Assembly: GCA_035221665.1 (NCBI GenBank) | Contig: JAVHYY010000896.1 | Coordinates: forward strand, 62,001-123,551 | Length of the DNA stretch: 61,551 nt | DNA from: Okamejei kenojei | Lineage: Eukaryota | Reading direction: 5' to 3' | Shown: piece by piece, positions 20,460 to 57,509 of the stretch | How the letters are laid out: every line of letters starts with the position of its first letter | How positions within the stretch are numbered: the first letter of the stretch is position 1 | The notes under the pieces: generated by a model | Told to the model about the DNA's origin: nothing | The model's input: the letters and a program-made list of their open reading frames with translations, nothing else | Database searches by the model: none | Program-made: the position numbers and the translations under genes

Positions 20460-20650
20460 AACCAGAAGTGCAAGATCGCAGCGAAGCTGAACTGGATACA
20501 AGCCAGCGTATTGTATTGGTCTGTGGTGTGATCGTCGGAATTCTCGGCACTGCAGTGGGATTCTGCCTGTGTTCCTGGTTGCGTTTCACCAGACGGGACT
20601 CTTGGATTCTCCGGATCAACCCTTTCACGAGGGTATCAGATTCGTCATAA
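20460..20650 (+). CDS. WA: MHC W-category alpha chain, connecting peptide/TM/cytoplasmic exon
   Basis: ttcacag acceptor, phase 1. EPEVQDRSEAELDTSQRIVLVCGVIVGILGTAVGFCLCSWLRFTRRDSWILRINPFTRVSDSS*. The TM has the class II alpha C..GxxxGxxGxxxG pattern. Stop TAA at 20648-20650. Confidence 0.88.
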
Positions 20651-28740: not shown

Positions 28741-28786
<46 letters not shown>

Positions 28787-30250: not shown

Positions 30251-30799
30251 ATTGGCCAAGTATTCACATACAAGGAATTTGCCTTGGTGCTCCGCCCGCA
30301 CGTGACATACAGTGACAGTTAGGAATGACACATAAAACATTAAACATTAATAATAAAACATATAATGTGAATGACATGTGAATGAAACAAAATACCGGAG
30401 CAAAAGGAGGCTACAGATTTTTGGTTATCGAGTAGAGCTACTACTCGTGGATTAAAAGCTGTGTTTATGTCTGGCTGTGGCAGCTTTGACAGTACAGAGT
30501 CGCCTTCCAGGCGGAAGTGATTCAAAGAGTTTGTGGCCAGGGTGAGAGGGGTCAGAGATGATCTTGCCCACTTGCTTCCTGGCCTTTGCAGTGTACAGTT
30601 CATCAATTGTGTGGGGGGGGGGGGGGGGAGGTTGCAGCCAACAACCTTCTCAGCTGATCGGACGATTCGGATGCCGTGCTACGTCATGCTGTTTACTTGT
30701 GTTGTTACTTGCGAGCGGAGCACCCAGGCAAATTCCTTGTATGTGTACATATTTGGCCAGTAAAATCTATTCAATTATTCAATTGTTCTCGACCCGCAG

Positions 30800-30890
30800 A
30801 TCGCACTGGAGAACGGGTTTGGGGGCGTCTACGGGCAGCAGAAGGCGGACTGGATGGTGACGGCGGTGGAGCGGTACTTTCTCGACAACG
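30800..30890 (+). CDS. TSR2: TSR2 exon 2
   Basis: cgcag| [30 protein letters not shown] |gtgaga. 91 bp, phase 0-1. Carries the conserved WGG-domain segment ENGFGG. Confidence 0.96.
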
Positions 30891-31371
30891 GTGAGAAATG
30901 TCTGAGAAACAGCGGGAGTAGGCCCTTCGGCCCACAATACCCATGCCAAACCTAATGTCAAGCCGACCTCGTGGATATACATTCAAGCTGAAGAAGGGGG
31001 TACTGTCCGATTCACCTCAACCCCAATGCGGATGTTGGTCTTTGTCTCTACGGCGCTGAGAATTATATTCTGGAGGGAGGGGGGGGGGCGTTACAGAGAC
31101 GGGGGGGGGGGGGGGGGGGGGGGGGGGGAGACGGGGGGGGGGAGACTTAACACCATGGTGGGAGAAGGCACAGAAACCTGAGATTACCGTGGAACGCTCG
31201 GACACCTGCTACTGCCCTCTCAAGGAATACACGGAAGTACGGGCAATATTTATACAGCTTAAAGCAGCTCAAGGTACATCAGGGCTCGAAATTAGCGGTT
31301 GCCCGGATGCCAATGGCAACCTAAAGTGCCGTCGGGCAACCTAACAGCCGTCCCATTTTGCCCGGCTTGGC

Positions 31372-31668
31372 NNNNNNNNNNNNNNNNNNNNNNNNNNNNN
31401 NNNNNNNNNNNNNNNNNNNNNNNNNNNNNNNNNNNNNNNNNNNNNNNNNNNNNNNNNNNNNNNNNNNNNNNNNNNNNNNNNNNNNNNNNNNNNNNNNNNN
31501 NNNNNNNNNNNNNNNNNNNNNNNNNNNNNNNNNNNNNNNNNNNNNNNNNNNNNNNNNNNNNNNNNNNNNNNNNNNNNNNNNNNNNNNNNNNNNNNNNNNN
31601 NNNNNNNNNNNNNNNNNNNNNNNNNNNNNNNNNNNNNNNNNNNNNNNNNNNNNNNNNNNNNNNNNNNN
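31372..31668. other. Assembly gap (N)
   Basis: Run of N in TSR2 intron 2. Confidence 0.99.
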
Positions 31669-31887
31669 CGGGCCGCCGGATCTCCGCTCTCCGCTCGCTC
31701 CTCATCCGCCACGGTAACTGGTCGGCGCCTCCCTGGAGTTACTCTTGCTTCGGGTTTCCTGGTCCTCCAAAAATATTCCAAATGGAATTTAACCCTCCAC
31801 CACCAAACTCAAAACTGTGAAAAATAATAGCCTATTGCACTTTATCTGTTTGTTTATTGTGTGTCTATGGTGTATATATGGTCTGGT

Positions 31888-31934
<47 letters not shown>

Positions 31935-32337
31935 TATTTTGACACACTTAACTTTTATCCCCTGTTCTGTATTACGTTTACATATTCTGTTGAGCTGCAG
32001 CAAGCAAGAATTTCATTGTCCTATCTGGGACACATGACAATAAAACTCTCTTGACTCTTGACTTGGAAGTAAGCAAAAAAAAGGGTTCTTGGGGGGAAAA
32101 ATGAATTACCTTAAATTTAGTTGCGTCTGGTTGGGTAACTATGGTAGGGTGAAGACTATTTAATTGTGCGGGAGAAGTCCTTGGAGTGTGGAAACAGGCC
32201 TTTCGGCCCACTGAGTACATGCCGACCACTGATCACCTGTACACTAGTTCTATCCCACACCTTAGCGACGCAGGTCAAGAGTGTTTTATTCTCTCACGTC
32301 CCAGTTAGAACAATGAAATCCTCGCGGCAGCACAACA

Positions 32338-33010
32338 GCAGGCAGTGAAGAAAGCTAATGGCATGTTGGCCTTCATAACAAGAGGATTTCAGTACAGGAG
32401 TAAAGAGGTTCTTCTGCAGTTGTACAGGGCTCTGGTGAGACCACATCTGGAGTATTGTGCGCAGTTTTGGTCTCCTAATTTGAGGAAGGACGGCCTTGTG
32501 ATTGAGGCAGTGCAGCGTAGGTTCACCAGATTGATCCCTGGGATGGCGGGACTGTCATATGAGGAAAGATTGAAAAGACTAGGCTTGTATTCACTGGAGT
32601 TTAGAAGGATGAGGGGGGATCTTATAGAAACATATAAAATTATAAAAGGACTGGACAAGCTAGATGCGGGAAAAATGTTCCCAATGTTGGGTGAGTCCAG
32701 AACCAGGGGCCACAGACTTAGAATAAAGGGGAGGTCATTTAAGACTGAGGTGAGAAAAAACTTTTTTACCCAGAGAGTTGTGAATTTATGGAATTCCCTG
32801 CCACAGAGGGCAGTGGAGGCCATGTCACTGGATGGATTTAAGAGAGAGTTGGATAGAGCTCTAGGGGCGAGTGGAGTAGAGGGATACGGGGAGAAGGCAG
32901 GCACGGGTTATTGATAGGGGACGATCAGCCTTGATCACAATGAATGGCGGTGCTGGCTCGAAGGGCCGAATGGCCTCCTCCTGCACTTATTTTCTATGTT
33001 TCTATGTTTC
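32338..33010 (+). mobile_element. Young CR1/HER1 3' fragment with an uninterrupted 189-aa ORF2 C-terminus
   Basis: ORF 32345-32914 [13 protein letters not shown]...GYGEKAGTGY*, followed by a (tttctatg)n tail. Confidence 0.93.
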
Positions 33011-33611
33011 TCGAATATGTAAACATAGTACTCTGTGAACAATGTTATAAACGAGAAAGCAAAACAGTGTATATTTATATATGAATATAAGTATATAAAT
33101 ATATATATAGAATTTACCTCCTGGGATTAATAAAGTTCTATCGTATAGTATAGTGTGTGCTGGAAGGAACTGCAGATGCTGGTTTAAACTGAAGATAGAC
33201 ACAAAACGCTGGAGTAACTCAACAGGTCAGACAGAATCTCTGGACCAAAGGAAAATATTACATTATGGGCAGTGACTCCAACTCTCCCGCTTTCGGCGGG
33301 AGATCGCCCGCTGAAAGGGCATTTTCGCAAAATCTCCCGCTCTCCCGCTTGAGATATAATTTCTCCCGCCCGGTTTAAATGACCGCCTAAACTGTAATTT
33401 GGCAACCTAAAAAGCTGCCAAGGTTGCCCGGCTGGCAACAGCGAAAAAAAGTTAAGCGAGAGCCCTGTACATCCACTAATTTTCCGCTGTTCACATGAAC
33501 GAAGCCTGTCTTTAACAAAGACGTGATGAGATTCCTTTGAATCTTCTCAATTCTGTTAACCCTTGCTGTCTCCTCCCCTTCCCACCTCTCCCTCAGCCCT
33601 CGGGGCCCTGG

Positions 33612-33670
<59 letters not shown>

Positions 33671-34256
33671 CCTCCCCCACCCTAGTCGCACTAGCTTCTC
33701 ATTTTCACACCACAAACAGCTTACAATGGCTTGTTCCCTTTATCATCGATACTTTTTTGCACATCTTTCATTCATTGTTCTTTATCTCTCCGCATCACCG
33801 TCTATATCTCTCGTTTCCCTGATCCCTGACCAGTCTGAAGAAGGGTCTCGACCCGAAACGTCGCCTATCTCCTTCGCTCCTTAGATGCTGCTGCACCCGC
33901 TGAGTTTCTCCAGCCTTTTGTGTACACCCCATAAGATTCCTTTAATTGTGTTATGGGAGTTAAAGCAGGACATGCACATTGTGTTGGGGAGTAAAACAGC
34001 TGCTATGATGAGAAGGTACCATTGTCTCACACGGAGGCACCACAGGATATGAGCTCCGAACACTGGTATGTCTATTCTTTGATAAAAAACTGAAAAACAA
34101 GTTCTTATCTGTGTTTCTCTAGTATCATAAAGGTCGATCTGCAAAGCCTGTTTTTAATAGCGCATTCTGCATTAAGATGTCTGCTATGGGCAAAATAAGA
34201 TGTCTCCGACAGCAGGGGGGAAGTGTAGGAGCCAGAGGGGGCAACAGAGACAATAG

Positions 34257-35320
34257 TCAATAGGTGCAGGAGTAGCACATTCGGCCCTTCGAGCCAGCAC
34301 CGCCATTCAATGTGATCACGGCTGATCATCCCCAATCAGTAGCCCGCTCCTGCCTTCTCCCCATATCCCCTGACTCCGCTATCTTTAAGAGCCCTATCTA
34401 GCTCTCTCTTGAAAGCATCCAGAGAACCGGCCTCCAACGCCCTCTGAGGCAGAGAATTCCACAGACTCACCACTCTCTGTGAGAAAACGTGTTTCCTCGT
34501 CTCCGTTCTAAATGGCTTACCCCTTATTCTTAAACTGTGTGTGGCCCCTGGTTCTGGACTCCCCTAACATCGGGAACATGTTTCCTGCCTCTAGCGTGTC
34601 CAAACCCTTAACAATCTTATATGTTTCAATAAGATCACCTCTCATCCTTCTAAACTCCAGAGTATACAAGCCCAGCCGCTCCATTCTCTCAGCATATGAC
34701 AGTCCCGCCATCACGGGAATTAACCTGGTGAACCTACACTGCACTCCCTCAATAGCAAGAATGCCCTTCCTCAAATTAGGGGACACAATACTCCAGATGT
34801 GGTCTCACTAGGGCTCTGTACAACTGCAGAAGGACCTCTTTGCTCCTATACTCAACTCCTCTTATTATGAAGGCCAACAGGCCAAAACTGCACACAATAC
34901 TCCAGGTGTGGTCTCACCAGGGCCCTGTACAACTGCAGAAGGACCTCTTTGCTCTTATACCCAACTCCTCTTGTTATAAAGGCCAACAGGCCAAAACTGC
35001 ACACAATACTCCAGGTATGGTCTCACCCGGGCCCTGTACAACTGCAGAAGGACCTCTTTGCTCCTATACTCAACTCCTCTTGTTATGAAGGCCAACAGGC
35101 CAAAACTGCACACAATACTCCAGGTGTGGTCTCACCAGGGCCCTGTACAACTGCAGAAGAACCTCTTTGCTCCTACACTCAACTCCTCTTGTTATAAAGG
35201 CCAACATGCCATTCGCTTTCTTCACTACCTCCTGTACCTGCGTGCTTACTTACATAGACTGATGAACAAGGACCCCCAGATCCCGTTGTACTTCCACTTT
35301 TCCCAACTTGACGCCATTTA
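34257..35320 (-). mobile_element. CR1 fragment containing a 109-bp internal tandem amplification (about 34780-35205)
   Basis: Repeating ORFs start at 34840, 34949 and 35058, a period of 109 bp. Confidence 0.88.
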
Positions 35321-35425
35321 GACTGGGAGGGGTGTGGTAATGGCGCACTCCCTCCCGCCGAGCCAGTCCCCGCCCGACCACGCTCCTGCCGCGCTCACCC
35401 TCTGACTGTCCTCTCCTCCCCGCAG

Positions 35426-35517
35426 CTGACCTGGACAGAGAGGAGGTGGAGGAGCTGCTGGCCGAGCTGTTGGACAACGAGTTTGACACGGTGGTCGAGG
35501 ATGGCAGCGTGTCGGAG
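35426..35517 (+). CDS. TSR2: TSR2 exon 3
   Basis: ccccgcag| (A)DLDREEVEELLAELLDNEFDTVVEDGSVSE |gtacga. 92 bp, phase 1-0. NEFDTVVEDGS is a TSR2 signature. Confidence 0.96.
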
Positions 35518-35729
35518 GTACGAGGGGGTCTCCTGTCACCGCCGGCGGTGCATGGATGGAGGGGGTCATTGAGACGGGGGGGGAGGTAGGTGCCCGAGGG
35601 AGGTGGGCTGCAGACGGGGAGGGGTGTGCGGGGGCCAGTGGGAGAGGAGGGGGGTTGTTGAGATGGATCGGGGCCAGAGAGGAGGGCGTTACAGAGACTG
35701 GGAGAGGTATAGGGGCCGATGGAGCCTTA

Positions 35730-37229
35730 AGGGCCTGTCCAACTTTCACGACCTTTTTTACCCGTGGACATTAGTCATCATGCTAGAAAAAAACGCCGCG
35801 ATCTACTTGATGCCAAGATACAAGATACATTTATTTGTCACATGTGCCAGGTGGCACAGTAAAATGCCATCACAATACAAAATAAAGAACACAACACACG
35901 ATAGAATTCAACATAAAACATCCCCTCACAGTAGCAGTGTTACAAAATTTTGAGATTTTAAAAATCAAGTCTGCAATTTATCCCATCAGATAAAGCATTA
36001 AAAAAAATTTGACACCTAATTCACTTTCACATCTTCAGTATTAAAAAAGGTATGGCCATTTTCATACTCGGAAATTAGCAACTTGTTCCCCATTGCCTTT
36101 CCATTGACTTAACTCAAAAGCTGCGATCGAGGGCAGTCAAAAGCCCATAACTTTCTTAAAAATTAAGAGAACTCAATGAAATTTTCAGTTATTATAGATT
36201 GAAGCATTCTGAAACAAATATGAAACAATCTTACTTGGATGACCTGAAATTAAAGCATATAATTAGTTAGTTACCTAATTGTAGCTAATTACAAAATTCA
36301 ATTACTAGATCTAAACATCTCTCCATTTCTTAAGAAAAGATTTTAAATTGCCTAAGTGTCCAAATAACATTCACACAATAATTCACAATATAACATGATT
36401 TTTAAATCTCATTTTCATGAATTTATAGGCCAAATGGAAGGAATTTAGTGTTTAATTCCTGTAAATTAATGGCCATTTAAATCAACTTGCGAGTGGGTTT
36501 TAGTGGAGTGCGATGGATTGGAACGTTGCGGCTTGCGGTGAAGTCGGCAGGAATAAAACTGCCGGTTCGTGTATATTATTTGTCCCCATTTCGCAACATG
36601 AAAATGTGATTAAATGTTTCCTAAGAACCGCGCTTTTATGTAAAAATAAACTCTGTACCTTTTTTTCTCCCCTATGTGAAATCCTTCCCGTTGTCGGCGC
36701 TCACGGCTTTAGAAGATGATTTTTAAATTACTTTAGCTAATAAATAATCTAGCGTAATTTAAACATACCTTCATAAATCAAATGTCGGAGCGATTTTTCT
36801 TCAGCAACGTAGAAAAACGGCGCTTTAAACACGCCCCCCTCTGAAAGACGCCAAAGTCACACACACGGGGAGCGGCAGAATTACAGCGCTGCTCGAGGTA
36901 CGTTTTGTAACATACCTACTCACAGCAGAAACAAAGGTTTCCCACTGTGAGGGAAGGCACCAAAGTCAGTCCTCTTCCTCCAATGTTCACCCGTGGTCGG
37001 GGCCTCCGCGATGTTCAGGCCGGGGCGATGTAAGTCCGACGCCGGGGCTGGTGGACCTCCTCACGCTGCTGCAGCTCCGGACCGTGTCCCCGGCAGCAAA
37101 GGCCGCTCCGATCCAGGTGACGAGTGACTACGACTGGCGTCACGGCCTGCTACCACCCTCGTGACGACCATGCTGCGAGTATGAGTCAAGCGCAAACTCG
37201 GCAGAGGTCGTGAAAGTGGGACAGGCCCT
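35730..37229. mobile_element. Harbinger MITE (TIR AGGGCCTGTCC) containing a LINE tail and a nested DNA element
   Basis: agggcctgtccaactttcacgacc ... ggtcgtgaaagtgggacaggccct. Confidence 0.8.
35930..36920. mobile_element. AT-rich non-autonomous DNA transposon, TIR AGTAG..TGTTACAAAA, 3-bp TSD CAC
   Basis: cac|agtagcagtgttacaaaa ... ttttgtaacatacctact|cac. Confidence 0.75.
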
Positions 37230-37934
37230 TATTACAGGCGGTGAGGGGTTGTCAAGTCAAGAGAGTTTTATTGTCATATGTCTCAGATAGGACAATGAAA
37301 TTCTTGCTTGCTGCAGCTCAACAGAATATATAAACGTAATATAGAACAGGAGATGGAAGTTCAGTGTGTCTATATACCATGGACCATATATATACACAAT
37401 AAATAAAGAGATAAAGTGCAATAGGCTGCTATAGTTCAGAGTTTGTTTGATGGCGAGTTTAGTAGCCTGATGGCTGTGGGGAAGAAGCTGTTCCTGAACC
37501 TGGATGTTGCAGATTTCAGGCTCCTGTACCTTCTACCTGATGGCAGCGGGGAGATGGGTGAGTGGCCAGGAAGGTGTGTGGGTCCTCGATGATGTTAGCC
37601 AGCCTTTTTGAGGCAGCGACTGCGATGGTGGGGAGGTGAGAGCCGGTGATGGAGTGGGCAGTGGTCACAACCTTCTGCGTTCCTTTCCGCTCCTGGGCGC
37701 TCAAGTTTCCGAACCAGGCAATGGTGCAGCCGGTCAGCATGCTCTACCGTGCACCTGTAGAAGTTCGAGAGAGTCCTCCTTGACATACCGACTCTCCGTA
37801 ATTTTCTCAGGAAGTAGAGGCGCTGAGATGTGCTATCTTTATGGTTTGCAAGGAAGGCCTTTGGGGGTAGGGTGAGGGGGGGGGGGGGGGGGTGTAGGTA
37901 GTGGCCGTCGTGACCCGTTCTTTGCCGTTGCCAG

Positions 37935-38114
37935 GTGGCGGAGGAGATCTGGACGACGTTTGCCCTGTGCCGGAGGGGTCAGGAGGCGGAGGTGAGAGGT
38001 CGCATCCAGAGGCTGGCCCAGAAGAGGTTCAGCGCCAGGGCGGAGGCGGTGAAGAGCAGGGCGGAGGGAGCCGGGGGTGAGGACAGCGAGGAGGAGGAAG
38101 ATGGCGGAGCGGAG
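37935..38114 (+). CDS. TSR2: TSR2 exon 4
   Basis: ttgccag| VAEEIWTTFALCRRGQEAEVRGRIQRLAQKRFSARAEAVKSRAEGAGGEDSEEEEDGGAE |gtgagg. 180 bp, phase 0-0, with an acidic tract. Confidence 0.92.
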
Positions 38115-38239
38115 GTGAGGCCTTGGAGTCAGAGAACTACCAACTTCCTACCAACAGGAAGGGCCTGTTTCCACGCTGAGTCATAGAGAGATACAGCGTG
38201 GAAACAGGCCCTTCGGCCCAACTTGCCCACACCGGCCAA

Positions 38240-44795: not shown

Positions 44796-45077
44796 CTAGA
44801 TTTTGAGGCTGTCTTTGTTGGCGTAGTCCTCCCTCCAGCCCCTCTCCTCCCGCCTGCCGAGCCTCACCGAGGCGTAGAGGTCAGACGAGCCCAGATCCAG
44901 GAGCTGGGTGTTTGAGGTTGGCGAGGGAACGTCGCTGTGGCTGCCCTCCGATGCTCCGTGCCCTGCCTGCCCGACGGCCAGCATGTTCAAGATGTCGGTG
45001 TACTGCGTGCTGGTTAGCTTTCTGCCCCGTCGATCCCGGGACGCGGGCAACTCCAGCTTGGCATAGCAGACCTGTCG
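44796..45077 (-). CDS. SIT1: SIT1-like adaptor, terminal exon with tyrosine signalling motifs
   Basis: ccccttttgtcccgtcgatcag| RQVCYAKLELPASRDRRGRKLTSTQYTDILNMLAVGQAGHGASEGSHSDVPSPTSNTQLLDLGSSDLYASVRLGRREERGWREDYANKDSLKI*. The motif order matches human SIT1 (CYTSL, VKYSEV, ELYASV, AYAN). Confidence 0.85.
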   Translation of the reverse strand, partial: RQVCYAKLELPASRDRRGRKLTSTQYTDILNMLAVGQAGHGASEGSHSDVPSPTSNTQLLDLGSSDLYASVRLGRREERGWREDYANKDSLKI

Positions 45078-45578
45078 CTGATCGACGGGACAAAAGGGGA
45101 ACGTAAATAATGTTCCCATCTCCGCCCCTTCAGAAGCATAGGTGCAGGAGTAGAGGCCATTCGGCCCTCCGAACCAGCACCGCCATTCACTGTGATCACG
45201 GCTGATCATCCCCAATCTGTATCCCCGCTCCTGCCTTCTCCCCATATCCCCTGACTCTGCTATCTTTAAGAGCTCTATCTAACGCTCTTGAAAGTATCCA
45301 GAGAACCGGCCTCCACCGCCCTCTGAGGCAGAGAATTCCACAGACTCACAACTCTCTGGGTGAAAAGGTTTTTCCTCGTCTCCGTTCTAAATGGCTGACC
45401 TCTTATTCTTAAACTGTGTTCTGAACTCCCCCAACATTGAGAACATGTTTCCTGCCTCTAAACTGTCCAATCCCTTAATTATCTTCTGTTTCAATAAGAT
45501 CCCCTCTCATCCTAAATTCCAGTGTATACAATCCCCTCCGCTCCTCCCCTCCCCCTCCCCTCACCTCCCCTTTCCTCC

Positions 45579-45774
45579 NNNNNNNNNNNNNNNNNNNNNN
45601 NNNNNNNNNNNNNNNNNNNNNNNNNNNNNNNNNNNNNNNNNNNNNNNNNNNNNNNNNNNNNNNNNNNNNNNNNNNNNNNNNNNNNNNNNNNNNNNNNNNN
45701 NNNNNNNNNNNNNNNNNNNNNNNNNNNNNNNNNNNNNNNNNNNNNNNNNNNNNNNNNNNNNNNNNNNNNNNNNN
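45579..45774. other. Assembly gap (N) inside the SIT1-like gene
   Basis: Run of N. Confidence 0.99.
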
Positions 45775-45840
45775 TGACGTTAAACACACCTTTTACGTCC
45801 CGCATTGCCGTAGACTGCGGTATGCTCCCTCTTTCCACAT
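45775..45840 (-). CDS. SIT1/TRAT1-like adaptor, exon 5 (partial; 3' end uncertain, probably in the gap)
   Basis: caccctgtag| (D)VERGSIPQSTAMRDVKGVFNV continues open into the N gap. Its phase-1 start matches exon 4, and a phase-0 end is needed to join the last exon. Confidence 0.6.
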
Positions 45841-46319
45841 CTACAGGGTGAATGAGAGTGTTTCCGGTATTAAACACACTGTGACTTGTTCAAAGAGTCT
45901 CTATCTCATACATGTTACTGGGAAATAATCTCAGTGGCACAACTGGTACATGTCTCCGAGCTCCGGAGACCTGATCCGTAGACATGGAAACATAGAAATT
46001 AGGTGCAGCAGGAGGCCATTTGGCCCTTCGAGCCAGCACCACCAAGCATGGTGGAATTGCCTGCGTTTCAGCACCTAAGTTGACATGGGGAAGCTTTTTC
46101 CACTGAGAATAGGGCTTTTTTTTTTATTCACAGAATTTTGTAAGGTCAAACTGACTTGTGGGGGGGGGGGGGGGAAAGCCCTTCCGTGTGCCGTCATACA
46201 CGTGACCGGCCCTATTTGACCGATGACCCTTGAGAAATGTTTTAGCTTTGGTAAACTTAAAAAAAAAAGAGAATCGTGTATGCAGCACAAAACAATATGC
46301 CTGCAATGCTGTCGAAATT

Positions 46320-47310
46320 AGAAGAGATGTATTTGGAGGTTAATGCTGATAAGTGTGAGGTGCTACATCTTGGCAGGATAAATCAAAATAGGACGTACAT
46401 GGTAAATGTGAGCAAATTGAGGAATGCTGTGGAACAGAGGGATCTAGGAATAACTGCGCATAGTTTCAGCACCTAAGTTACAGAGAAAGGTTGAACTTTT
46501 GGATAATGAAGTAGATTTTCAAAGTCTACAGAGAGATTTGGGCCATTTGGAAAAGTGGGCTGAAAGATGGCAGATGGAGTTTAATGCTGTTAAGTGTGAA
46601 GTGCTACATCTTGGCAGGACAAATCAAAATAGGACGTACATGGTAAATGGTAGGGAATTGAGGAATGCTGTGGAACAGAGGGATCTAGGAATAACTGTGC
46701 ATAATTCCCTGAAGGTGGAATCGCATGTAGATAGGGTGATAAAGACAGCCTTTGGTGTGCTGGCCTTTATAAATCAGAGCATTGAATATAGGAGTAGGGA
46801 AGTTATGTTAAAATTGTACAAGGCATTGGTAAGACCAATTCTGGAGTATGTGTACAGTTTTGGTCGCCTAATTATAAGAAGGATGTCAACAAAATAGAGA
46901 GAGTACAGAGAGATTTACTAGAATGTTGCCAGGGTTCCAGCAACTATTACAGAGAAAGGTTGAACAAGTTAGGTCTTTATTCTTTGGAGCGCAGAAGGTT
47001 AAGGGGGGACTTGATTTGAGGTCTTTAAAATGATGAAAGGGATAGACAAGTTGACGTGGATACGTTTTTCCCATTGAGGGTAGGGAAGATTCAAACAAGA
47101 GGGCATGACATGAGAATTAAGGGACAGAGGTTTCGGGGTAACGTGAGGGGGAACTTCTTTACTCAGAGGGTGGTGGCTGTGTGGAATGAGCTTCCAGTGG
47201 AAGTGGTGGAGGCAGGATCGATTTTAACATTTAAAAGTAAAGTGGATAGGTATATGGATGGGAAAGGAATGGAGAGTTATGGTCTGAGTGCAGGTAGATG
47301 GGACTAAGTG
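46320..47310 (+). mobile_element. CR1 (second subfamily) 3' fragment; degenerate copies at 51975-52870 and 60655-61050
   Basis: LQRDLGHLEKWAERWQMEFNAVKCEVLHLGRTN...LVRPILEY. Confidence 0.9.
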
Positions 47311-47320
47311 AGAGTAAAAA

Positions 47321-47606
47321 ATGCCCCTGTCCCACTTAGCAAACCTGAACGGAAACCTCTGGAGACTTTGCGCCCCACCCAAGGTTTCCGTGCGGTTCCC
47401 GGAGGTTTTTGTCCTCCGGCAACCACCCTCAACTAGTATCGCAACCGGCTTCGACTAAAAAAATGACCGATTTCTAAAACGGAAACCACTTTCGACCATG
47501 AGGGAGACTGACAAAGACCTCCGGGGACCGCACGGAGGAGACCTGGGGTGGGGGCGCAAAGCCTCCAGAGGTTTCCGTTCGGGTTTCCTAAGTGGGACGG
47601 GGGCGT
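47321..47606. mobile_element. Harbinger-like MITE (TIR GCCCCTGTCCCACTTAG) inserted in a CR1 tail
   Basis: atgcccctgtcccacttag ... ctaagtgggacgggggcgt. Confidence 0.7.
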
Positions 47607-47875
47607 TAGTGTTCGGCACGGACGAGAAGGGCCGAGATGGCCTGTTTCCGTGCTGTAATTGTTATGTGGTTATATGTGTGGGCACTGTAAGGGCAGCAAC
47701 TGTACCGCTATGCGACTGCGTGGTGTGTGTGTGTGTGTGTGTACGTGTGTGTGAAGGGCTGAATGGCCTGCTCCTGCACCTATTTTCCATGTCGCTAAGT
47801 TCTCCGTTGCCCCACGGATGCGGGTGAGACGAGGGTGTGCGTGTCTGCTGTGCCCGATGCTCACAAAATGCTCAC

Positions 47876-47943
47876 CCGTGTAAAAGTAGTTTATGTTGCC
47901 ATAGACCGGATTCTCCTCCACCTCCTCCGACTTGAAGTTAAGG
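47876..47943 (-). CDS. SIT1/TRAT1-like adaptor, exon 4 (YGNI motif)
   Basis: ttccttcgtag| (S)LNFKSEEVEENPVYGNINYFYT |gtgagc. 68 bp, phase 2-1. Aligns to human SIT1 VEEVPLYGNLHYLQT and TRAT1 IEDTPIYGNL. Confidence 0.88.
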
Positions 47944-48111
47944 CTACGAAGGAAAGATATGATGCAAGTCGTGTAAGTCCAGTCATAGAAATATAGAGAA
48001 TAGGTGCATGCGGCCCTTCGCGCCAGCACCGCCATTCGATACGATCACGGCTGATCACCCACAATCAGCGCCCCGTTCCGGCCTTCTCCCCACATCCCTT
48101 GACTACATTAG

Positions 48112-48720
48112 CAGAGATGCCAAGTGTCCCGGATTCGCCGTATTTTGTCCCGGCGAAATAACCTTTTTACGGTGTTCCGGCAGCCAAACATGCTGTTACG
48201 GAACGCCGGTGTTCCTCCCGTGGTGAACGCCGGCGCCATGTGCCCCCGGTTTGCCGGCCCGCGCGATCAGCGGCACTTTGCCGGGCCCTAGTGTCCGCGC
48301 CTGCGCAGTTGGGGAGGGTTGCCGGGCCCCAGTGGCCGCGCGTGCGCAGTGGGGGAGGGTTGCCGGGCCTGGCGCCATTTCGAGCCACGCCACGCACGGC
48401 CCAGAGCCCGGGCGGCGCCGGCCCGCGCGATCAGCGGCACTTTCTTGCCGCCAGCCGGCCGCTCGCGGCAGCCCCATCACCGGGCCTCCCCCCCCACCCC
48501 CACCCAGTGCGCAGGCGCAGACCCGCCGGCAACCTTGCCAAGTGCGCATGTGCCGCACCCGCCCGCCGGCAGCCCGCTGATCTGCACCAGTGCGCAGGCG
48601 CATAGCCGCCGGCAACAACTCCAAGTGAGTATGTTACGGAGAGAAATGCATTTAACCCCATTTGTTACGGACAAATGGGTTGAATGTTACTGTGAACTAA
48701 ATTTAGGGTTGGCATCTCTG
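48112..48720 (+). mobile_element. Non-autonomous hAT-like element, TIR CAGAGATGCCAA, 6-bp TSD CATTAG
   Basis: cattag|cagagatgccaa ... ttggcatctctg|cattag, with a GC-rich interior containing internal repeats. Confidence 0.85.
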
Positions 48721-49164
48721 CATTAGCCCCAGGAGCTCGATCTAACTCTCCCTTGAAAACATCCAGTGAATTGGCCTCCACTGCCTTGAGTGGCAGAGAA
48801 TTCCGCAGATTCACATCTCGCTGGGTAAAAAAGTGTTTCCTCATCTCAGTCCTAAATGGCCGACCCCTTATTCTTAAACTGTGTGTGTGAACTGGTTCTG
48901 GACTCCCCGAACATGGGGAACATGTTTCCTGCCTCTAAACTGTCCAATCCTTTAATAATCTTACATGTTTCAATAAGATCCCCTCTCATCCTTCTGAATT
49001 CCAGTGTATGCAAGCCCAGTCGCTCCATTCTCCAACATCGGGAACATGTTTCCTGCCTCTAGCATGTCCAAACCCTTAATGATCTTATATGTTTCAATAA
49101 GATCCCCGCACATTAACACGCATTGGGGACAAATTACACTTATACCAAGCTAATTAACCTGTAA

Positions 49165-50020
49165 ACAATAGACAATAGGTGCAGGAGTAGGCCATTAGGC
49201 CCTTCGAGCCAGCACCGCCATTCAATATGATCATGGCTGATCATCCAACTCAGTATCCTGTACCTGCCTTCTCTCCATACCCCCTGATCCCTTTAGCCAC
49301 AAGGGCCACATCTAACTCCCTCTTAAATATAGCCAATGAACTGGCCTCAACTACCTTCTGTGGCAGAGAATTCCACAGATTCACCACTCTCTGTGTGAAA
49401 AATGATTTTCTCATCTCGGTCCTAAAAGACTTCCCCCTTATCCTTAACTGTGTGACCCCTTGTTCCGGACTTCCCCAACATGGGAACAATCTTCCTGCAT
49501 CTAGCCTGTTCAACCCCTTAAGAATTTTGTAAGTCTCTATGAGATCCCCCCTCAATCTTCTAAGTTCCAGCGAGTACAAGCCGAGTCTATCCAGTCTTTC
49601 TTCATATGGAAGTCCTGCCATCCCAGGAATCAGTCTGGTGAACCTTCTCTGTACTCCCTCTATGGCAAGAATGTCTTTCCTCAGATTAGGAGACCAAAAC
49701 TGTACGCAATACTCCAGCCTCACCAAGACCCTGTACAACTGCAGTAGAACCTCCCTGCTCTTGTACTCAAATCCTTTTGCTATGAATGCCAACATACCAT
49801 TTTTACGCTTTCTTTCACTGCCTGCTGCGCCTGCATGCCCTACTTTTCAATGACTGGTGTACTTAAGGAAATGGCTCTAGAAATCGTGGATGCATTTGGC
49901 GATCGTTTTCCAATGCTCCATGGCTTCAGGAATCACTTCCTGTGGATTGGAGGGTAGCTAATGTTATCCCACTTTTTAAAGAAGGGAGGGAGAGAGAAAA
50001 CAGGGAATTATAGACAAGCT
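49165..50020 (-). mobile_element. CR1/HER1 fragment (similar copy at 50957-51700)
   Basis: ORF 49250-49795. Confidence 0.9.
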
Positions 50021-50051
50021 TCTGAATGCTCGCAGACATCAGGGGTCTTAC

Positions 50052-50088
50052 CTTCTCCTGAAGTGCGGGAGGAACTTGCTGGTGTTAC
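50052..50088 (-). CDS. SIT1/TRAT1-like adaptor, exon 3
   Basis: tttcacag| (G)NTSKFLPHFRR(S) |gtaag. 37 bp, phase 1-2. It exactly bridges the phases of the flanking exons. Confidence 0.8.
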
Positions 50089-50206
50089 CTGTGAAAAAGG
50101 CGACAGGTAGATCGGGCAGTCAAAAAGGCTTTGGCCACATTTGTTTTGGTTGAGTTTAGTTTATTGTCAGGTGAAAAGCTTTCATTGCGTGCTAACGGCA
50201 CTCTAA

Positions 50207-50833
50207 AGGGCCTGCCCCACTTGGCTGTTATTTACGCGACAGGCCGGTAGTGACTGACGCGCGATGGTCGCGCACGAATCGCGCGTCCGCACAGCCGTGT
50301 GGAGCGCGAGACGTCATTTGAAGATAGACGCGACATTCAGGAGCAACTCAGCGTGGCCGGCAGCGTCTCTGGAGAGAAGGAATGTGTGACGTTTCGGGGT
50401 CGAGACTCTTCCTCAGTCTGAAAGAAGGGTCTCGGCCCGAAATGTCGCCCATTGCTTCCCTCCAGAGACGCTGCCGGCCCCGCTGAGTTACTCCCGCATT
50501 TTGTGTCTAATCTCCAATCGTCTTGGACCCATCTCTGGGAAGAGGAGTGGGGGCAGATCCGGATCCGCAACGACCGCGAGCCCCCGGGCCGAGCGCGGCG
50601 ATCGTTTGCCCGCTTCTGCTGCCGTCGGAGGTGAGACGTCGCGCCGCGCCAGGGTCTTGGGCCTGGTCCCACTTTGGCCGCCAGTTACGTGGCAGGCCGG
50701 TGGCGCGCGAAGATTTTGCCCGGGACGAGGTCCACACTCCTCCGCGCCACCCCACACGCCTGTCCCCGCGCTACCCACACGCCAGCAGGGCGGGTACATG
50801 GCGCGCGAATGGCGGCCAAGTGAGACAGCCCCT
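50207..50833. mobile_element. Harbinger MITE (TSD TAA) with an inserted SINE-like fragment
   Basis: taa|agggcctgccccacttggc ... gccaagtgagacagcccct|taa. Confidence 0.75.
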
Positions 50834-53250
50834 TAACGCTATCCTACGCACACTCGTGACAATTTACATCCACACCCAAGCCAAATATCCGACAAACCTG
50901 CGCGTCTTTGGAGTGTGGGAGGAAACCGAAGATCTCGGAGAAAACCCACGCAGGTCATAGAAACATAGACAATAGGTGCAGGAGTAGAGGCCAGTCGGCC
51001 CTTCGAGCCTGCGCCGCCATTCAATATGATCACGGCTGATCATCCAACTCAGTATCCCGTACCTGCCTTCTCTCCATACCCCCTGATCCCTTTAGCCACA
51101 TCTAACTCCCTCTTAAATACAGCCAATGAACTGGCCTCAACTACCTTCTGTGGCAGAGAAATTTCACAGACTCACCACTACTTTCTGTGTGAAAAAAAAC
51201 ATTCTTCTCATCTCGGTCCCTAAAGATTTCCCCCTTATCCTTAAACTGGTGAACCCCTTGTTCTGGACTTCCCCAACATCGGAACAATCCTTCCTGCAAT
51301 CTAGCCTGTCCAACCCCGTAAGAATTTTTGTAAGTCTCTATAAGATCCCCCCTCAATCTTCTAAATTCTAGTGAGTACAAGTCCGAGTCTTTCTTCACAT
51401 GGAAGTCATTGCCATCCCAGGAATCAGTCCTGGTGAGCCTTCTCTATACTGCCTTCTATGGCAAGAATGTCCTTCCTCAGATTTGGAGACCAAAACTGTA
51501 CGCAATACTCCAGGGGTGGCCTCACCAAGACCCTGAACAAAAACTACAGTAAACCACCCCTGCTCCTACACTCAAATCATTTTTGCTACGAATGCCAACA
51601 TACCATTCGCTTTCCTCACTGCCTGCTGCACCTGCATGCCTACTTTCAATGACTGGTGTACCATGACACCCAGGTCTCGCTGCATCTCCCCTTTTCCTAA
51701 TCGGCCGCCGTTCGGTCACAGGGAGAGCTTGCAAACTCCGTACAGACGGCACCCGTAGTCGGGATCGAACCCGGGTCTCCGGCGCTGCACTCTACCCCTG
51801 CACTACTGAGCTGCCAGTGTGGGCAGGTTGGGTCGAAGGGCCTGTTTCCACTATGTGTAACTACAACTGGAGAGACTGAGCAAACGGGGACTTTATTCCT
51901 TTTGTGTTTTGAGGCTGGGGGATAATCCGATCCTCTTTTTGTGACTTGTCAAGTGACAATAAAGGCGCCATATGAAGTAGATGGATAATTTAGTAGATTT
52001 TCAAAGTCTACAGAGAGATTTGGGCCATTTGGAAAAGTGGGCTGAAAGATGGCAGATGGAGTTTAATGCTGTTAAGTGTGAAGTGCTACATCTTGGCAGG
52101 ACAAATCAAAATAGGACTACATGGGTAACTGTAGGTATTGAGGAATGCTGTGAACAGAGGATCTAGGAAAACTTGCATAGTTCCCTAAGGTGGAATCGAA
52201 TTAGATAGGTGGTAAAGAACCATTGTGTGCTGGCCTTTATAAATCAGAGACATTTGAATATAGGAGTAGGGAATAACTGTTAAAATCTGTTACAAGGCAT
52301 TGGTAAGAACCAATTCTGAGTATGGTGTACAATTTTGGTCGCCAAGTTATAGGAAGGATGTAACAAAATAGAGAGAGTACAGAGGAGATTTACTGAATGT
52401 AGTCCAGGATTCCAAGCAACTAAGAGACAGGAAAGGTTAACAAGTTGGTCTTTATTTTCTTTGAGCGCAGAGGTTATGGGGGGACTTGATTGAGGTCTTT
52501 TTAAAATGATACAGGGATAGACAGAGTTAAACGTGATATAACGTTTTTTCCCATTGAGGTAGGGAAGATTCTAAACAAAGGCATGACATGAGAATTAAGG
52601 GACAGAAGTTTCGGGTAACGTGAGGGGGAACTTCTTTACTCAGAGGGTGGTGGCGTGTGGAATCAGCTTCCAGCAGAAGTGGTGGAGGCAGGATCGATTT
52701 TAACATTTAAGAGTAAAGTGGATAGGTATATGGACGTGAAGGGAATGGAGGGGTATGGTCTGAGTGCAGGTAGATGGGACTAGGGGAAAACAAATGGTCG
52801 GCACGGACTGGAAGGGCCGAGAGGGCCTGTTTCCGTGCTGTAATTGTTATATGGTTATATGGTTATAAAGTCCATAGGAAATCTTTCCCTCCACCGTTGA
52901 ACATTTGGTGGCATTTCCTTTCTCCATAGCCCTGTTATCATCTTTTTAGCATCAACAGCATTACCCCAAGCAAATATTTCTGATTTTGGATATCTGTCGC
53001 TGCTGGAGTATCTCCTAATATAAAACGAGCCGGTTCCAGAGGATCCTCTCCAAGAATTAATTTAATCTCCGCCTGGATGCCTCTCCAGTATTGGTACAAT
53101 TTGGGACAATTCCAAAAATATGTGTGTGATCACCTATCTTGCCAACATCTTGCTCACTGCTTTAAAACAGCCAACTCGCAAAAACCGTTAGGTAGACCAA
53201 CTCAAGCTTTACTGATCATCAGCCGGCGGAAGTGATCCCGTTGTACCTAC

Positions 53251-53367
53251 CTCTCCGGTAACTCTGGGCACAGAAGACAATGTTGCACGAGAGAGAGAGA
53301 AGCAGCAGGACTCCGGCAGCTCCGCAAACTACCCACATCAGGGAACTGCAGCACAGACCATGGAGAC
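53251..53367 (-). CDS. SIT1/TRAT1-like adaptor, TM exon
   Basis: ctctttcag| (G)LHGLCCSSLMWVVCGAAGVLLLLSLSCNIVFCAQSYRR(G) |gtaggt. 117 bp, phase 1-1. Confidence 0.85.
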
Positions 53368-53499
53368 CTGAAAGAGGGAGACATCAGAGGCGGTGAGATG
53401 TCCTTCCTCGCTAAGGAGTCGTAGAGTCACTCAGCACGCACACAGAGGCGATCGTTATTAGGCTTTGCCAACTTTCCGTCACTCCCAAATAACAAAAGA

Positions 53500-56400
53500 C
53501 ATAGTTGCAGGAGTAGAGGCCATTCGGCCCTTCCAGCCAGCACCGCCCATTCAATGTGATCACGGCTGTCCATCCCCAATCTGGTATCCCGTTCCTGCTT
53601 CTTTCACGCATATCCCCTGACTCCCAATCTTCAGACCCTATCTTGAAAGTATCCAGAGAAACGGCCGCCACCGCTCTCCGAGGCAGAGAATTCCACAGAC
53701 TTCACCACTCTCTGTGTGTGAAAAAGTGTTTCCAGTCTCCTTTCTAAATGGCTCCTCCTATTCTTCAACTGTGTGGCCCTGTTCTGGACTCAACCAACAA
53801 TCGGAACATGCCTCTACGTGTCCAAACCCTTAAATCGTATATGTTTCCATAAGATCCCCTCTCATCCTTGTAAATTCCAGAGTATACAAGCCCAGTCGCT
53901 CCATTCTTTCAAACATATAACAGTCCTCCATCCACGTGGATAACCTTGAAAGCCTACTTTGCAGTCTTCCCACAATAACAAGAAGGGTCTCAACTCGAAA
54001 CGTCACCTATTCCTTCGCTACATAGATGCTGCCTCACCCGCTGAGTTTCTCCAGCATTTTTGTCTACCCTCAATAGCAAGAATGTCCTTCCTCAAATTAG
54101 GAGACCAATACTTGGCACACAAATACTCCCGTGTGGTCTCACCAGGCCCTGTACAACCGCAGAAGGACCTCCCTCCTTGCTCCTTTACTCAACTTCTCTC
54201 GCACCGAAGGCCAACAGGCCAAAATCGGGGCTCACAATACTCCAGGTGTTCTCACCAGTGGTCCACCAGGGGCCGTGTACAACTGCCAAGGACCTCTTTG
54301 CTCCTATACTCAAATCCACTTATTATAAGGCCAACGGCCAAAAACGGCGCACAATACCCAGGTGTGGGGCCTCACTAGGAGCCTGTACAAACTGGCAGAC
54401 CGGACGCTCTTTGATCCTTACTCACTCCTCATATTATGAAGGCCAACCGGCCAAAACTTGCATATAAAACTCCAGGTGTTTGTCTCACCAGGGCCTGTAA
54501 CACTGCAGACGGACCCTCTTTGCTCTATACTCAAATCTCCTATTATGAAGGCCAACAAGCCAAAACTGCACACAATACTCCAGGTGTGGTCTCACTAGGT
54601 CCTGTACAACTGCAGAAGGACCTCTTTGCTCCTATACTCAACTTCAATGGCTTCTATGTTACTTGGTGCTGTTTGAATTTTCAAGTCGGCATCTCCATTT
54701 AAAAACAAACATCCGTTTGGTTCAGGACGTAAATGCCTAAAGCAGACAGCCGGCAGGTTGCAATTTTAAAATAGGTGCACGCCCTCCCTGCATACAGCAG
54801 CGTCACTTTTGTTTGTCAGGTTAGATTAGTTTTAGTTTAGAGATACAGCGCGGAAACAGGCCCTTTGGCCCACCGGGTCCTTGCCGACCAGCGGCCCCCG
54901 TACACTAACACTATCCTTCACCCGCCAGGGACAATTTTACACTTACACCAAGCCAATTAACTTCCTGTGCGAGGAAACCAAAGATCGGAAGAAAACCCAC
55001 GCAGGTCACGGCGAGAACAGTAGACAATAGACAACAGGTGCAGGCGTAGAGGCCATTCGGCCCTTCCAGCCAGCACCGCCGTTTACTGTGATCACGGCTG
55101 ATCATCCCCAATCAGTACCCCGTTCCTTGCTTCTTCCTCCCCATATCCCCTGATTCCGCTATCTTTAAGAGCCCTATCTAGCTCTCTCTTGAAAGCATCC
55201 AGACAACCGGCCTCCACCGCCCTCTGAGGCAGAGAATTCCACAGATTCACAACTCTCTGGGTGATGACGTTTTTCCTCATCTCCGTTCTAAATGGCCGAC
55301 CCCTTATTCCAAAACTGTTTGTGGCCCCCGGTTCTGGACTCCCCCAACATCGGGAACATGTTTCCTGCCTCTAGCGTGTCCAAACCTTTAATAATCTCAT
55401 ATGTTTCAATAAGATACCCTCTCACCCTTGTAAATTCTAGAGTCCACAAGCCCAGCTGCTCCATTCCTTCAACATATGACAGTCCTGCCATCCCGGGAAT
55501 TAACCTGGTGAACCTATGCTGCACTCCCTCAATAGCAAGAAGGATCTGAAGAAGGGTCTTGACTCGAAACGTCACATATTCCTTCGCTCCATAGATGCTG
55601 CCTCACCCGCTGAGTTTCTCCAGCATTTATGTCTACCCTCAATAGCAAGAATGTCCTTCCTCAAATTAGGAGACCAATACTGCACACAATACTCCAGGTT
55701 GTGGTTCCTCCATCAGAGCCCGTACAACTGCGAAGTACCTCTTGGCTCCTGTACTTAACTCTCTTTATAAGGCCCAACAGCAAAACTACAGCACACAATA
55801 CTCGTGTGGGGTCTCCCAGGCCCTGTACAACTGCAGAAGGACCTCTTTGCTCCTATACTCAACTCCTCTTATTATGAAGGCCAACAGGCCAAAACTGCAC
55901 ACAATACTCCAGGTGTGGTCTCACCAGGTCCCTGTACAACTGCAGAAGGACCTCTTTGCTCCTATACTCAAATCCTCTTATTATGAAGGCCAACAGGCCA
56001 AAACTGCACACAATACTCCAGGTGTGGTCTCACCAGGGACCTGTACAACTGCAGAAGGACCTCTTTGCTCCTGTACTCAACTTCAATGGCTTCTATGTTA
56101 CTTGGTGCTGTTTGAATTTTCAAGTCGGCATCTCCATTTAAAAACAAACATCCGTTTGGTTCAGGACGTAAATGCCTAAAGCAGACAGCCGGCAGGTTGC
56201 AATCTTAAAATAGGTGCACGCCCTCCCTGATTACAGCAGCGTCACTTTTGTTTGTCAGGTTAGATTAGTTTTAGTTTAGAGATACAGCACGGAAACAGGC
56301 CCTTTGGCCCAACCGGGTCCTGCGACCATCGCCCCCGTACACTATCACTATCCTTCACCCGCCAGGGACTAATTTTACACAAACACCAACCAATTAACCT

Positions 56401-57360
56401 CCAACATGCGCGAGAAACCGCAGATCTAATGAAAAACCCGCGACGTCAGGTCACGGGAGCACAATAGACGATAGACAACAGAGCTAGATTAGACCATTCG
56501 GTCCCTATCCCCCGAAATGTCACCTATCCCTTCGCCTCCACAGATGCTGCCTCACCTCACACCGCTGAGTTTCGCCAGCATTTTTGTCTAAAAAAATAAT
56601 AAAAACAAAACCCTCAAAGTGAGTAGCAGATGTCCTTCCTCAAATTAGGAGACCAATACTGCACAAAGTACTCCAGGTGTGGTCTCACCAGGGCCCTGTA
56701 CAACTGCAGAAGGACCTCTTTGCTCCAGTACTCAACTCCTCTTATTAGGAGCCACAGGCCAAAACTGCAACACAATAACGCCAGGTGTGGGTTCTCACCA
56801 GGCCTGTTACAACTGCAGAAGGACCGCTTTGCTCCTATACTCTTCTCCTCATGTTAAGAAGGCCAGACAGCCAAAACTGCACACATACGCCAGGTGTGGT
56901 CTCACCAGGGCCCTGTACAACTGCAGAGGACCTCTTTGCTCCAGTACTCAACTCCTCTTATTATGAAGGCCAACAGGCCAAAACTGCACAAAATACGCCA
57001 GGTGTGGTCTCACCAGGGCCCTGTACAACTGCAGACGGACCTCCTTGCCCCTTTACTCAACTCCTCTCGAACTGAAGGCCAACAGGCGTCAAAACTGCAC
57101 ACAATACGCCAGGTGTGGACCCACCAGGGCCCTGTACAACTGCAGAAGGACCTCCTTTGCTCCGGGAACTCAAACTCCACTTGTTATGAATGGCCAACTT
57201 GCCATTTGCTTTCTTTCACTGGCCTGCTGCGCCTCATGCCTACTTTCATTACTGATGAACAAGGACCCCCAGATTTCCCGATGACTTCCCCTTTTTCCCA
57301 ACTGACACCATTTAGATAATTGATTGTCTTACTGTTTTTTGCGCCAAAGTGGATAACCTT
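53500..57360 (-). repeat. Tandemly duplicated ~1.44-kb CR1/SINE/unique block with 109-bp CR1-derived arrays (SIT1-like intron 1)
   Basis: The unique segment ttcaatggcttctatgttacttggtgctg... occurs at about 54643 and 56082. A third partial unit starts at about 56480. Confidence 0.8.
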
Positions 57361-57469
57361 ATAACAAGTTGATAATTGAACATGTTTCAATTCCTCCCCT
57401 GATTTTATCCACCTCTATATATTTATTATATTCTAACGCCAATTTTTATATTCTAAAGTATTCGCTTAC

Positions 57470-57509
57470 CATAGCAGTCCTGAGTTTCGTTGCTTCCTGC
57501 TGTGTACAT
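57470..57509 (-). CDS. SIT1/TRAT1-like transmembrane adaptor, coding exon 1
   Basis: Minus strand agaATG...CTATG|gtaagc gives MYTAGSNETQDCY(G). 40 bp, phase 1, in frame with the TM exon. Has an N-glycosylation sequon (NET) and a Cys. Confidence 0.7.

What the first reader, a model, noticed from the sequence alone, without database searches (positions are those of the whole stretch)
44796..57509. Hand-assembled SIT1/TRAT1-family lymphocyte adaptor with mosaic features
Six exons give MYTAGSNETQDCYGLHGLCCSSLMWVVCGAAGVLLLLSLSCNIVFCAQSYRRGNTSKFLPHFRRSLNFKSEEVEENPVYGNINYFYTDVERGSIPQSTAMRDVKGVFNV[gap]RQVCYAKL...TQYTDI...DLYASV...EDYANKDSLKI. The five cytoplasmic tyrosine motifs follow the human SIT1 order: YGN (Grb2-type YxN), CYxxL, YxxI/V, LYASV and YAN. 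The apparently signal-less, short Cys-rich ectodomain and the TM ending LSLSCNI resemble TRAT1/TRIM (ISLIFNI). VCYAKL fits an ITIM and TQYTDI an ITSM consensus. Inference: an ancestral-type or third paralogue of the SIT1/TRIM family, implying antigen-receptor threshold tuning in cartilaginous fish. Exons 1-3 are not represented in the ORF track.
Basis: partly seen in the sequence, partly recalled or inferred. Interest (0 to 1): 0.7.

Follow-up and report, generated by a model that had tools for sequence, protein, structure and literature searches.

The report
Ordinary SIT1 adaptor of a skate
This is a real six-exon gene of a skate-like fish that is most likely its ordinary copy of SIT1, a known lymphocyte membrane adaptor that would dampen antigen-receptor signalling as it does in mammals; it is not a SIT1/TRAT1 mosaic, and only its place next to W-category MHC genes is unusual.

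Summary
The gene is real: six minus-strand exons with GT/AG ends, four junctions in frame, 84% identity to a Rhinoraja model. Only the exon-5 donor is unsettled. Two in-frame donors lie before the N-run, so no gap is needed. In a 36-protein tree the protein sits with bony-vertebrate SIT1 against TRAT1 (100/100), and both groups hold cartilaginous fish, ray-finned fish and tetrapods. A separate TRAT1 lies on contig C12 of the same genome. Every segment, ectodomain and TM included, scores about twice as high or more on a SIT1 profile as on a TRAT1 profile. The 'TRAT1-like' traits are not diagnostic: the TM-end motif is family-wide, and mouse SIT1 also lacks a leader. Three of nine cartilaginous-fish homologues are already named SIT1-like at NCBI. 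What remains of interest is small. The tail carries an ITIM plus ITSM pair typical of cartilaginous fish, and the gene lies in a WNK3-like / W-category MHC alpha / TSR2 block, probably shared with great white shark. No mammalian SIT1 was in the tree and bony-vertebrate synteny was not testable, so hidden paralogy keeps about 8%.

The parts
57470..57509 (-). Exon 1 (coding part, 40 nt): start codon, N-glycosylation sequon NET at N7, Cys12; no leader peptide
   Evidence: GT donor; homologues start at the same place
53251..53367 (-). Exon 2 (117 nt): Cys19-Cys20, single transmembrane helix (about 53341-53276), juxtamembrane cysteines
   Evidence: bony-SIT1 profile 35 bits against TRAT1 profile 20 bits
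50052..50088 (-). Exon 3 (37 nt): basic juxtamembrane stretch
   Evidence: AG/GT ends and phase; conserved in homologues
47876..47943 (-). Exon 4 (68 nt): acidic YGN motif (47906-47889), predicted Grb2-type site
   Evidence: motif role from human SIT Y90 (PMC2193021 passages)
45779..45840 (-). Exon 5: acceptor fixed at 45840; 3' end unsettled (after 45797 or 45779 in frame; after 45790 out of frame)
   Evidence: homologues have a 16-17 aa (rays) or 21 aa (sharks) segment here
44796..45077 (-). Exon 6 (282 nt): VCYAKL ITIM match (45071-45054), TQYTDI ITSM match (45008-44991), LYASV (44882-44865), YAN (44831-44814), stop
   Evidence: X4 contig ends at this acceptor

Best explanation
The six exons encode a roughly 195-201 aa single-pass membrane adaptor that is most likely the one-to-one SIT1 orthologue of a skate-like fish and is predicted to act as a brake on antigen-receptor signalling in lymphocytes. 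Shown here: gene structure, a 22-residue leaderless ectodomain with a sequon and three cysteines, one TM helix, five conserved tyrosine motifs, and placement in the SIT1 group. Inferred from mammalian SIT: it forms a glycosylated disulfide-linked dimer; Src/Syk kinases phosphorylate the tail after receptor triggering; the third tyrosine (here TQYTDI, human Y148) recruits SHP2; the two YxN motifs are candidate Grb2 sites; LYASV is a candidate Src-family site; the net effect is a raised activation threshold. Inferred and specific to cartilaginous fish: the ITIM 21 residues before the ITSM may let both SH2 domains of SHP2 bind, as proposed for PD-1.
For: Tree of 36 proteins: SIT1 group against TRAT1 group 100/100; window sister to Rhinoraja, then rays 99/100, cartilaginous fish 98/99; tetrapods 94/94 and ray-finned fish 99/99. 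AU test rejects a clade of cartilaginous SIT1-like plus cartilaginous TRAT1, p 3e-26. Profiles without any cartilaginous SIT1: full protein 134.7 bits (bony SIT1) against 57.1 (TRAT1); exons 1-2 38.1/17.9; exons 3-4 32.9/17.9; exon 6 41.1/10.8. LYASV-type motif in 10 of 10 cartilaginous and 15 of 16 bony SIT rows, 0 of 10 TRAT1 rows; YExM in 9 of 10 TRAT1 rows, 0 of 26 SIT rows. Separate TRAT1 at G000:C12, E 8e-33. One locus only with the Rhinoraja query, and the gar query ranks it first. PF15330 hit in 8 of 8 aligned homologues. Human SIT features and the mouse protein's lack of a leader: PMC2193021 passages. Inhibitory role: PMC3177817 part 1 of 4.
Against: No mammalian SIT1 sequence was retrieved, so the link to human SIT1 runs through NCBI names of alligator, caecilian, axolotl and fish proteins. 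The tree has no outgroup, and bony SIT1 monophyly is weak (87/59). The neighbours (WNK3-like, W-category alpha, TSR2) differ from the recalled human 9p13 setting. Searches for a second SIT1 locus are insensitive: alligator and caecilian queries missed even the known locus and PF15330 found neither SIT1 nor TRAT1. The best PF15330 score, 26.3 bits, is under the 27.6 cut-off. No function, expression site or junction was observed. In human cells SHP2 binding was not needed for NF-AT inhibition.
Confidence: 0.88

Rival explanations
1. Hidden paralogy: the cartilaginous-fish gene and mammalian SIT1 are differentially retained duplicates, one in the WNK3/TSR2 block and one in the 9p13-type block.
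For: Neighbours are a WNK3-like kinase, a W-category alpha gene and TSR2, not the recalled human SIT1 neighbours. No mammal in the tree. Motifs 2 and 3 differ consistently between cartilaginous and bony rows.
Against: The SIT1 group follows the species tree with one lineage per taxon. No SIT1-like exon in 200 kb around the RNase MRP gene on C3 (best 7.7 bits; controls 26-41 bits), a weak test because that region was not shown to match 9p13. A simple translocation explains the synteny as well.
Confidence: 0.08
2. One reading: an ancestral-type or third SIT1/TRAT1 paralogue with a TRAT1-like ectodomain and TM and a SIT1-like tail.
For: Leaderless Cys-bearing ectodomain and the S-L-x-x-N-I TM end are present. 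An unrooted tree cannot formally exclude a root on this branch.
Against: The TM-end motif is in 15 of 16 bony SIT and 9 of 10 TRAT1 rows. Mouse SIT lacks a leader. Ectodomain+TM identity is 30% to SIT1 and 20% to TRAT1 rows. The N-terminal-only tree keeps it with SIT1 (88/93). Cartilaginous fish have their own TRAT1. A root on this branch needs two extra gene losses.
Confidence: 0.02
3. In this species the gene is damaged or mis-assembled at exon 5, so the main transcript is frameshifted and loses four of the five tyrosine motifs.
For: The most consensus-like donor (after 45790) matches the ray exon boundary but is out of frame; exon-5 skipping also frameshifts. The region shows many small indels against public contigs, mostly in repeats.
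Against: Two in-frame donors exist. Exon 6 is intact and 77% identical to Rhinoraja with all motifs kept. An assembly slip would be likelier than a true lesion.
Confidence: 0.02

Closest known systems
SIT1 (SHP2-interacting transmembrane adaptor; Pfam PF15330)
   Same: Short ectodomain with one N-glycosylation sequon and cysteine; one TM; five tyrosine motifs in the same order; 21-residue spacing of tyrosines 2 and 3 as in human Y127/Y148; same tree group.
   Different: No leader (human has one, mouse does not). Three ectodomain cysteines against one in human. Motif 2 fits an ITIM in 9 of 10 cartilaginous rows but 2 of 16 bony rows. Motif 3 has Thr at -2 in 10 of 10 cartilaginous rows, where bony rows have an Ile-led ITIM (11 of 16 by script). 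Different gene neighbours from human (human side recalled).
NCBI 'SIT1-like' and uncharacterized models of sharks and rays (P0001-P0009)
   Same: Direct orthologues: 84% identity to Rhinoraja; same length, layout and motifs.
   Different: Only small indels in exon 5 and exon 6; exon-5 end unsettled here.
TRAT1/TRIM
   Same: Same family; shares the leaderless start, TM-end motif, acidic YGN motif and CYxxL motif.
   Different: The window protein lacks YExM and the IHxDP motif and has LYASV and terminal YAN, which TRAT1 rows lack. TRAT1 is a separate gene on C12.
PD-1 tandem ITIM-ITSM tail (works-like comparison only)
   Same: ITIM then ITSM by the consensus in PMC12151841; 21 residues apart here, 25 in PD-1.
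   Different: No Ig ectodomain, not homologous. SHP2 binding untested. Gln at -1 of the ITSM makes an SH2D1A switch unlikely by that paper's argument.

Membership tests
SIT family (PF15330) | Profile match over TM to YGN region | tested here: inconclusive
   8 of 8 homologues hit PF15330, best E 1.1e-5, 26.3 bits, under the 27.6 cut-off; single window exons gave 0 hits; Atlas top three clusters for P0002 are PF15330, SIT1-like 0.94, TRAT1 0.94, SIT1 0.93
SIT1 | Groups with named SIT1 proteins against TRAT1 | tested here: met
   100/100 full length; 88/93 on ectodomain+TM alone; no mammal included
SIT1 | Short ectodomain with one N-glycosylation site and cysteine | tested here: met
   About 22 aa, NET at N7, Cys12/19/20; human definition
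SIT1 | Five tail tyrosine motifs: YGN, YxxL, ITIM-type, YASV, YAN | tested here: met
   Y79, Y107, Y128, Y170, Y187 in the 195-aa form; motif 3 is ITSM-type here
SIT1 | Single copy beside a separate TRAT1 | tested here: met
   searches for distant copies are insensitive
SIT1 | Synteny with mammalian SIT1 | tested here: inconclusive
   Neighbours are WNK3-like, W-category alpha, TSR2; the contig ends 4 kb upstream of the gene; bony-vertebrate loci not available
SIT1 | Disulfide-linked glycosylated dimer, lymphocyte expression, SHP2 binding, inhibition of TCR signalling | not testable with these tools
   Known for mammalian SIT; inferred here
TRAT1/TRIM | YxxM (PI3K p85) motif | tested here: not met
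   YExM absent from window protein and all 26 SIT rows, present in 9 of 10 TRAT1 rows; role
TRAT1/TRIM | Groups with TRAT1 in tree or profile score, in any segment | tested here: not met

The most novel reading that the evidence does not exclude
Shark and ray SIT1 sits inside the W-category MHC block because both came from one ancient MHC-related region; it is a duplicate retained separately from mammalian SIT1, and its tandem ITIM-ITSM tail makes it a ligand-independent, PD-1-like SHP2 activator in cartilaginous-fish lymphocytes.
Probability: 0.08. Interest if true: 0.5.

Novelty: new member of a known kind. Interest (0 to 1): 0.15.

Why it matters
Little as a gene discovery: orthologues are already in public annotation. 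It does show that SIT1 and TRAT1 had split before sharks and bony vertebrates diverged, and that the leaderless ectodomain is the usual SIT1 state. I found no paper stating this (Creative Commons library only). The linkage to W-category MHC genes and the ITIM-ITSM pair are testable leads for comparative immunologists.

Tried and rejected
Pfam on single exons: 0 families for the 4 SIT1 exons scanned, too short. PF15330 over the own genome: one weak match on C18 with a stop inside, 10 bits on the SIT1 profile; rejected as chance. Alligator and caecilian SIT1 as genome queries: only weak, unrelated matches, known locus missed. RGP1 family as a 9p13 marker: no match, control silent. 200 kb around RNase MRP on C3: no SIT1-like exon, but the region was not shown to match 9p13. 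Sequencing runs: no RNA holder listed on record; laying 4 runs on the gene was swamped by repeats and showed no splice joint among 15 of about 1600 listed joints; a second attempt returned no result, so the exon-5 end stays open. Papers: 5 searches for SIT1 in sharks, fish evolution or next to TSR2/WNK3 gave no relevant paper (listings only). The W-category paper's main text and 3 held supplement sheets do not mention SIT1 or TSR2; its SI Appendix with the synteny figures was not seen and may bear on the linkage. Earlier findings of this scan: none. No structure or complex prediction was run, since the protein is one helix plus a likely disordered tail. Rows left out of the tree: P0010 (other isoform), P0013 (chimeric model), P0018, P0021, P0030, P0033 (partial), P0032 (unrelated repeat protein), P0034 (replaced by cluster mate P0058).
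Full report
Observation. All 15 motifs checked from the finding are on the minus strand at the stated places. Exon 1 (coding 57509-57470, 40 nt), exon 2 (53367-53251, 117 nt), exon 3 (50088-50052, 37 nt) and exon 4 (47943-47876, 68 nt) end in GT. Exons 2-6 begin after pyrimidine-rich AG acceptors. The phases chain without a stop into exon 5, which starts at 45840. Exon 6 runs 45077-44796 and ends in TAG. The one flaw is exon 5's end. Donors after 45797 and after 45779 both give an open frame, of 195 and 201 aa. A more consensus-like donor after 45790 falls where ray homologues appear to end this segment, but is out of frame as the window reads. I could not decide between them. One 867-nt contig from run X4, whose kind is not on record, matches 45078-44763 and stops at the exon-6 acceptor with several hundred unmatched letters. 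This fits a spliced transcript but shows no junction.

Homologues. Exon 6 alone found 4 of 102 candidates, all sharks and rays. The Pristis protein found 8 of 70, and a profile of 8 found 13 of 3072, adding paddlefish and gar. Of nine full-length cartilaginous-fish homologues, three are named SIT1-like by NCBI (Pristis, Heterodontus, Heptranchias) and six uncharacterized. All 8 aligned members hit PF15330, best E 1.1e-5 but just under the curated cut-off. A full HMMER scan gave 33 proteins at E 0.001 or better. I looked up names for 20 of them. They include SIT1 of Astyanax, Xiphophorus, caecilian, axolotl, newt and alligator, and TRAT1 of elephant shark, stingrays, paddlefish, mormyrid, caecilian and frogs. 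No mammalian protein was retrieved.

Phylogeny. A 36-row maximum-likelihood tree splits SIT1 from TRAT1 at 100/100. The window protein is sister to Rhinoraja (84% over 193 columns), inside rays (99/100) and cartilaginous fish (98/99), beside tetrapod (94/94) and ray-finned (99/99) SIT1. The TRAT1 side also holds cartilaginous, ray-finned and tetrapod groups. Bony SIT1 monophyly is weak (87/59) and the root is midpoint only. A clade of cartilaginous SIT1-like plus cartilaginous TRAT1 is rejected (p-AU 3e-26). The own genome has a TRAT1 on C12 (four exon matches, best E 8e-33) and one locus matching the Rhinoraja protein. Searches for more distant copies are weak: the gar query ranked the known locus first at E 0.25, while alligator and caecilian queries missed it.

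Mosaic test. Profiles built without any cartilaginous SIT1 score the protein 134.7 bits (16 bony SIT rows) against 57.1 (10 TRAT1 rows). Exons 1-2 score 38.1 against 17.9, exons 3-4 32.9 against 17.9, exon 6 41.1 against 10.8. A tetrapod-only profile of 6 rows gives 100.4, 32.2, 19.4 and 30.2. Mean identity over ectodomain plus TM is 30% to SIT rows and 20% to TRAT1 rows. A tree of the first 52 residues still separates all SIT rows from TRAT1 (88/93, 56 columns). Ten of 15 assessable bony SIT rows have 18-26 residues before the TM, like the 22 here. An N-glycosylation sequon is in 8 of 10 cartilaginous and 12 of 16 bony SIT rows (one row of each not assessed) but 1 of 10 TRAT1 rows. The original SIT paper states that mouse SIT lacks the leader of human SIT, that SIT differs from TRIM by its glycosylation site, and that it lacks TRIM's YxxM motif (PMC2193021, passages). 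YExM is in 9 of 10 TRAT1 rows and 0 of 26 SIT rows. The LYASV-type motif is in 25 of 26 SIT rows and 0 of 10 TRAT1 rows. Nothing in the protein is specifically TRAT1.

Mechanism. Shown: leaderless ectodomain with sequon and three cysteines, one TM, five conserved tyrosines. Inferred from mammalian SIT: a glycosylated disulfide-linked dimer in lymphocytes, phosphorylated by Src/Syk kinases, binding SHP2 through tyrosine 3, with candidate Grb2 and Src-family sites elsewhere, lowering proximal TCR signalling (PMC3177817, first quarter read). One lineage trait is real. Motif 2 fits the ITIM consensus in 9 of 10 cartilaginous rows against 2 of 16 bony rows. Motif 3 has Thr at -2 in 10 of 10 and a full ITSM in 7 of 10; Cetorhinus, Mustelus and Hemiscyllium lack the +3 hydrophobic residue (consensus from PMC12151841 passages). 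The two tyrosines are 21 residues apart, against 25 in PD-1, so two-site SHP2 binding is possible but untested. That paper also warns that such labels need not imply the named function.

Neighbourhood. The contig is 123,551 bp and ends 4 kb upstream of the start codon. Downstream lie TSR2 (PF10273 hits in three exons), a class II-type MHC alpha gene, and a WNK kinase whose best solved-structure match is WNK3 (160 against 151 bits for WNK1; no WNK2 among the 15 hits, so WNK2 was not compared). The alpha gene has a beta-2-microglobulin-like alpha-2 exon. By eye, its alpha-1, alpha-2 and TM exons match the WA DS10-like rows in the datasets of PMC8713811, so it is a W-category gene. An NCBI great white shark model (P0013) joins SIT1 exons 1-2 to a domain identical by eye to that paper's great white shark WB DS1L, which suggests the same linkage there. 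That WNK3 and TSR2 are neighbours on human Xp11 and SIT1 lies on 9p13 is recalled, not tested. No SIT1-like exon lies within 100 kb either side of RNase MRP on C3, a weak test. Translocation is the simplest reading; hidden paralogy stays at about 8%.

Verdict. A real gene and most likely an ordinary SIT1 orthologue, already represented in public annotation. The mosaic and third-paralogue reading is not supported. Interest 0.15, carried by the W-category linkage and the ITIM-ITSM pair.

Noticed in passing
window 11806-12069, 14117-14398, about 20460-20590 (+): [quoted passage not shown] No WB partner was found on this contig with a WB DS1L query.
   Followed up: partly
window 26577-38200 (+): TSR2 gene: exons start at 26577, 30800, about 35427 and 37935; PF10273 hits in the first three.
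   Followed up: partly
L020 (G000:C1028, about 11600-16600, -): WNK kinase exons, best match WNK3; gives the order WNK3-like, WA, TSR2, SIT1 on the contig.
   Followed up: partly
L029 (G000:C1003:19141-19398, -): W-category beta (WB DS1-like) beta-1 exon on another small contig; further weak MHC-like matches on C30.
   Followed up: partly
P0013 (great white shark NCBI model): Probably a chimeric model joining SIT1 exons 1-2 to W-category WB DS1L; suggests SIT1 and W-category genes are adjacent in that shark too.
   Followed up: partly
window exon 2, 53290-53265: Juxtamembrane cysteines (C41, C46) recur across non-mammalian SIT rows; possible palmitoylation sites, whereas mammalian SIT is described as non-raft. 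Untested.
   Followed up: no
P0007, P0008, P0009: Cetorhinus, Mustelus and Hemiscyllium have Thr at +3 of the third tyrosine, losing the ITSM match; the predicted SHP2 site may be weakened in these sharks.
   Followed up: no
L006-L009 (G000:C12, 6.91-6.93 Mb, -): The genome's TRAT1 gene, with YEAM motif.
   Followed up: partly
L047:8419-8763 (G000:C3, +): An open frame that looks by eye like part of a retroviral envelope gene; observed only.
   Followed up: no
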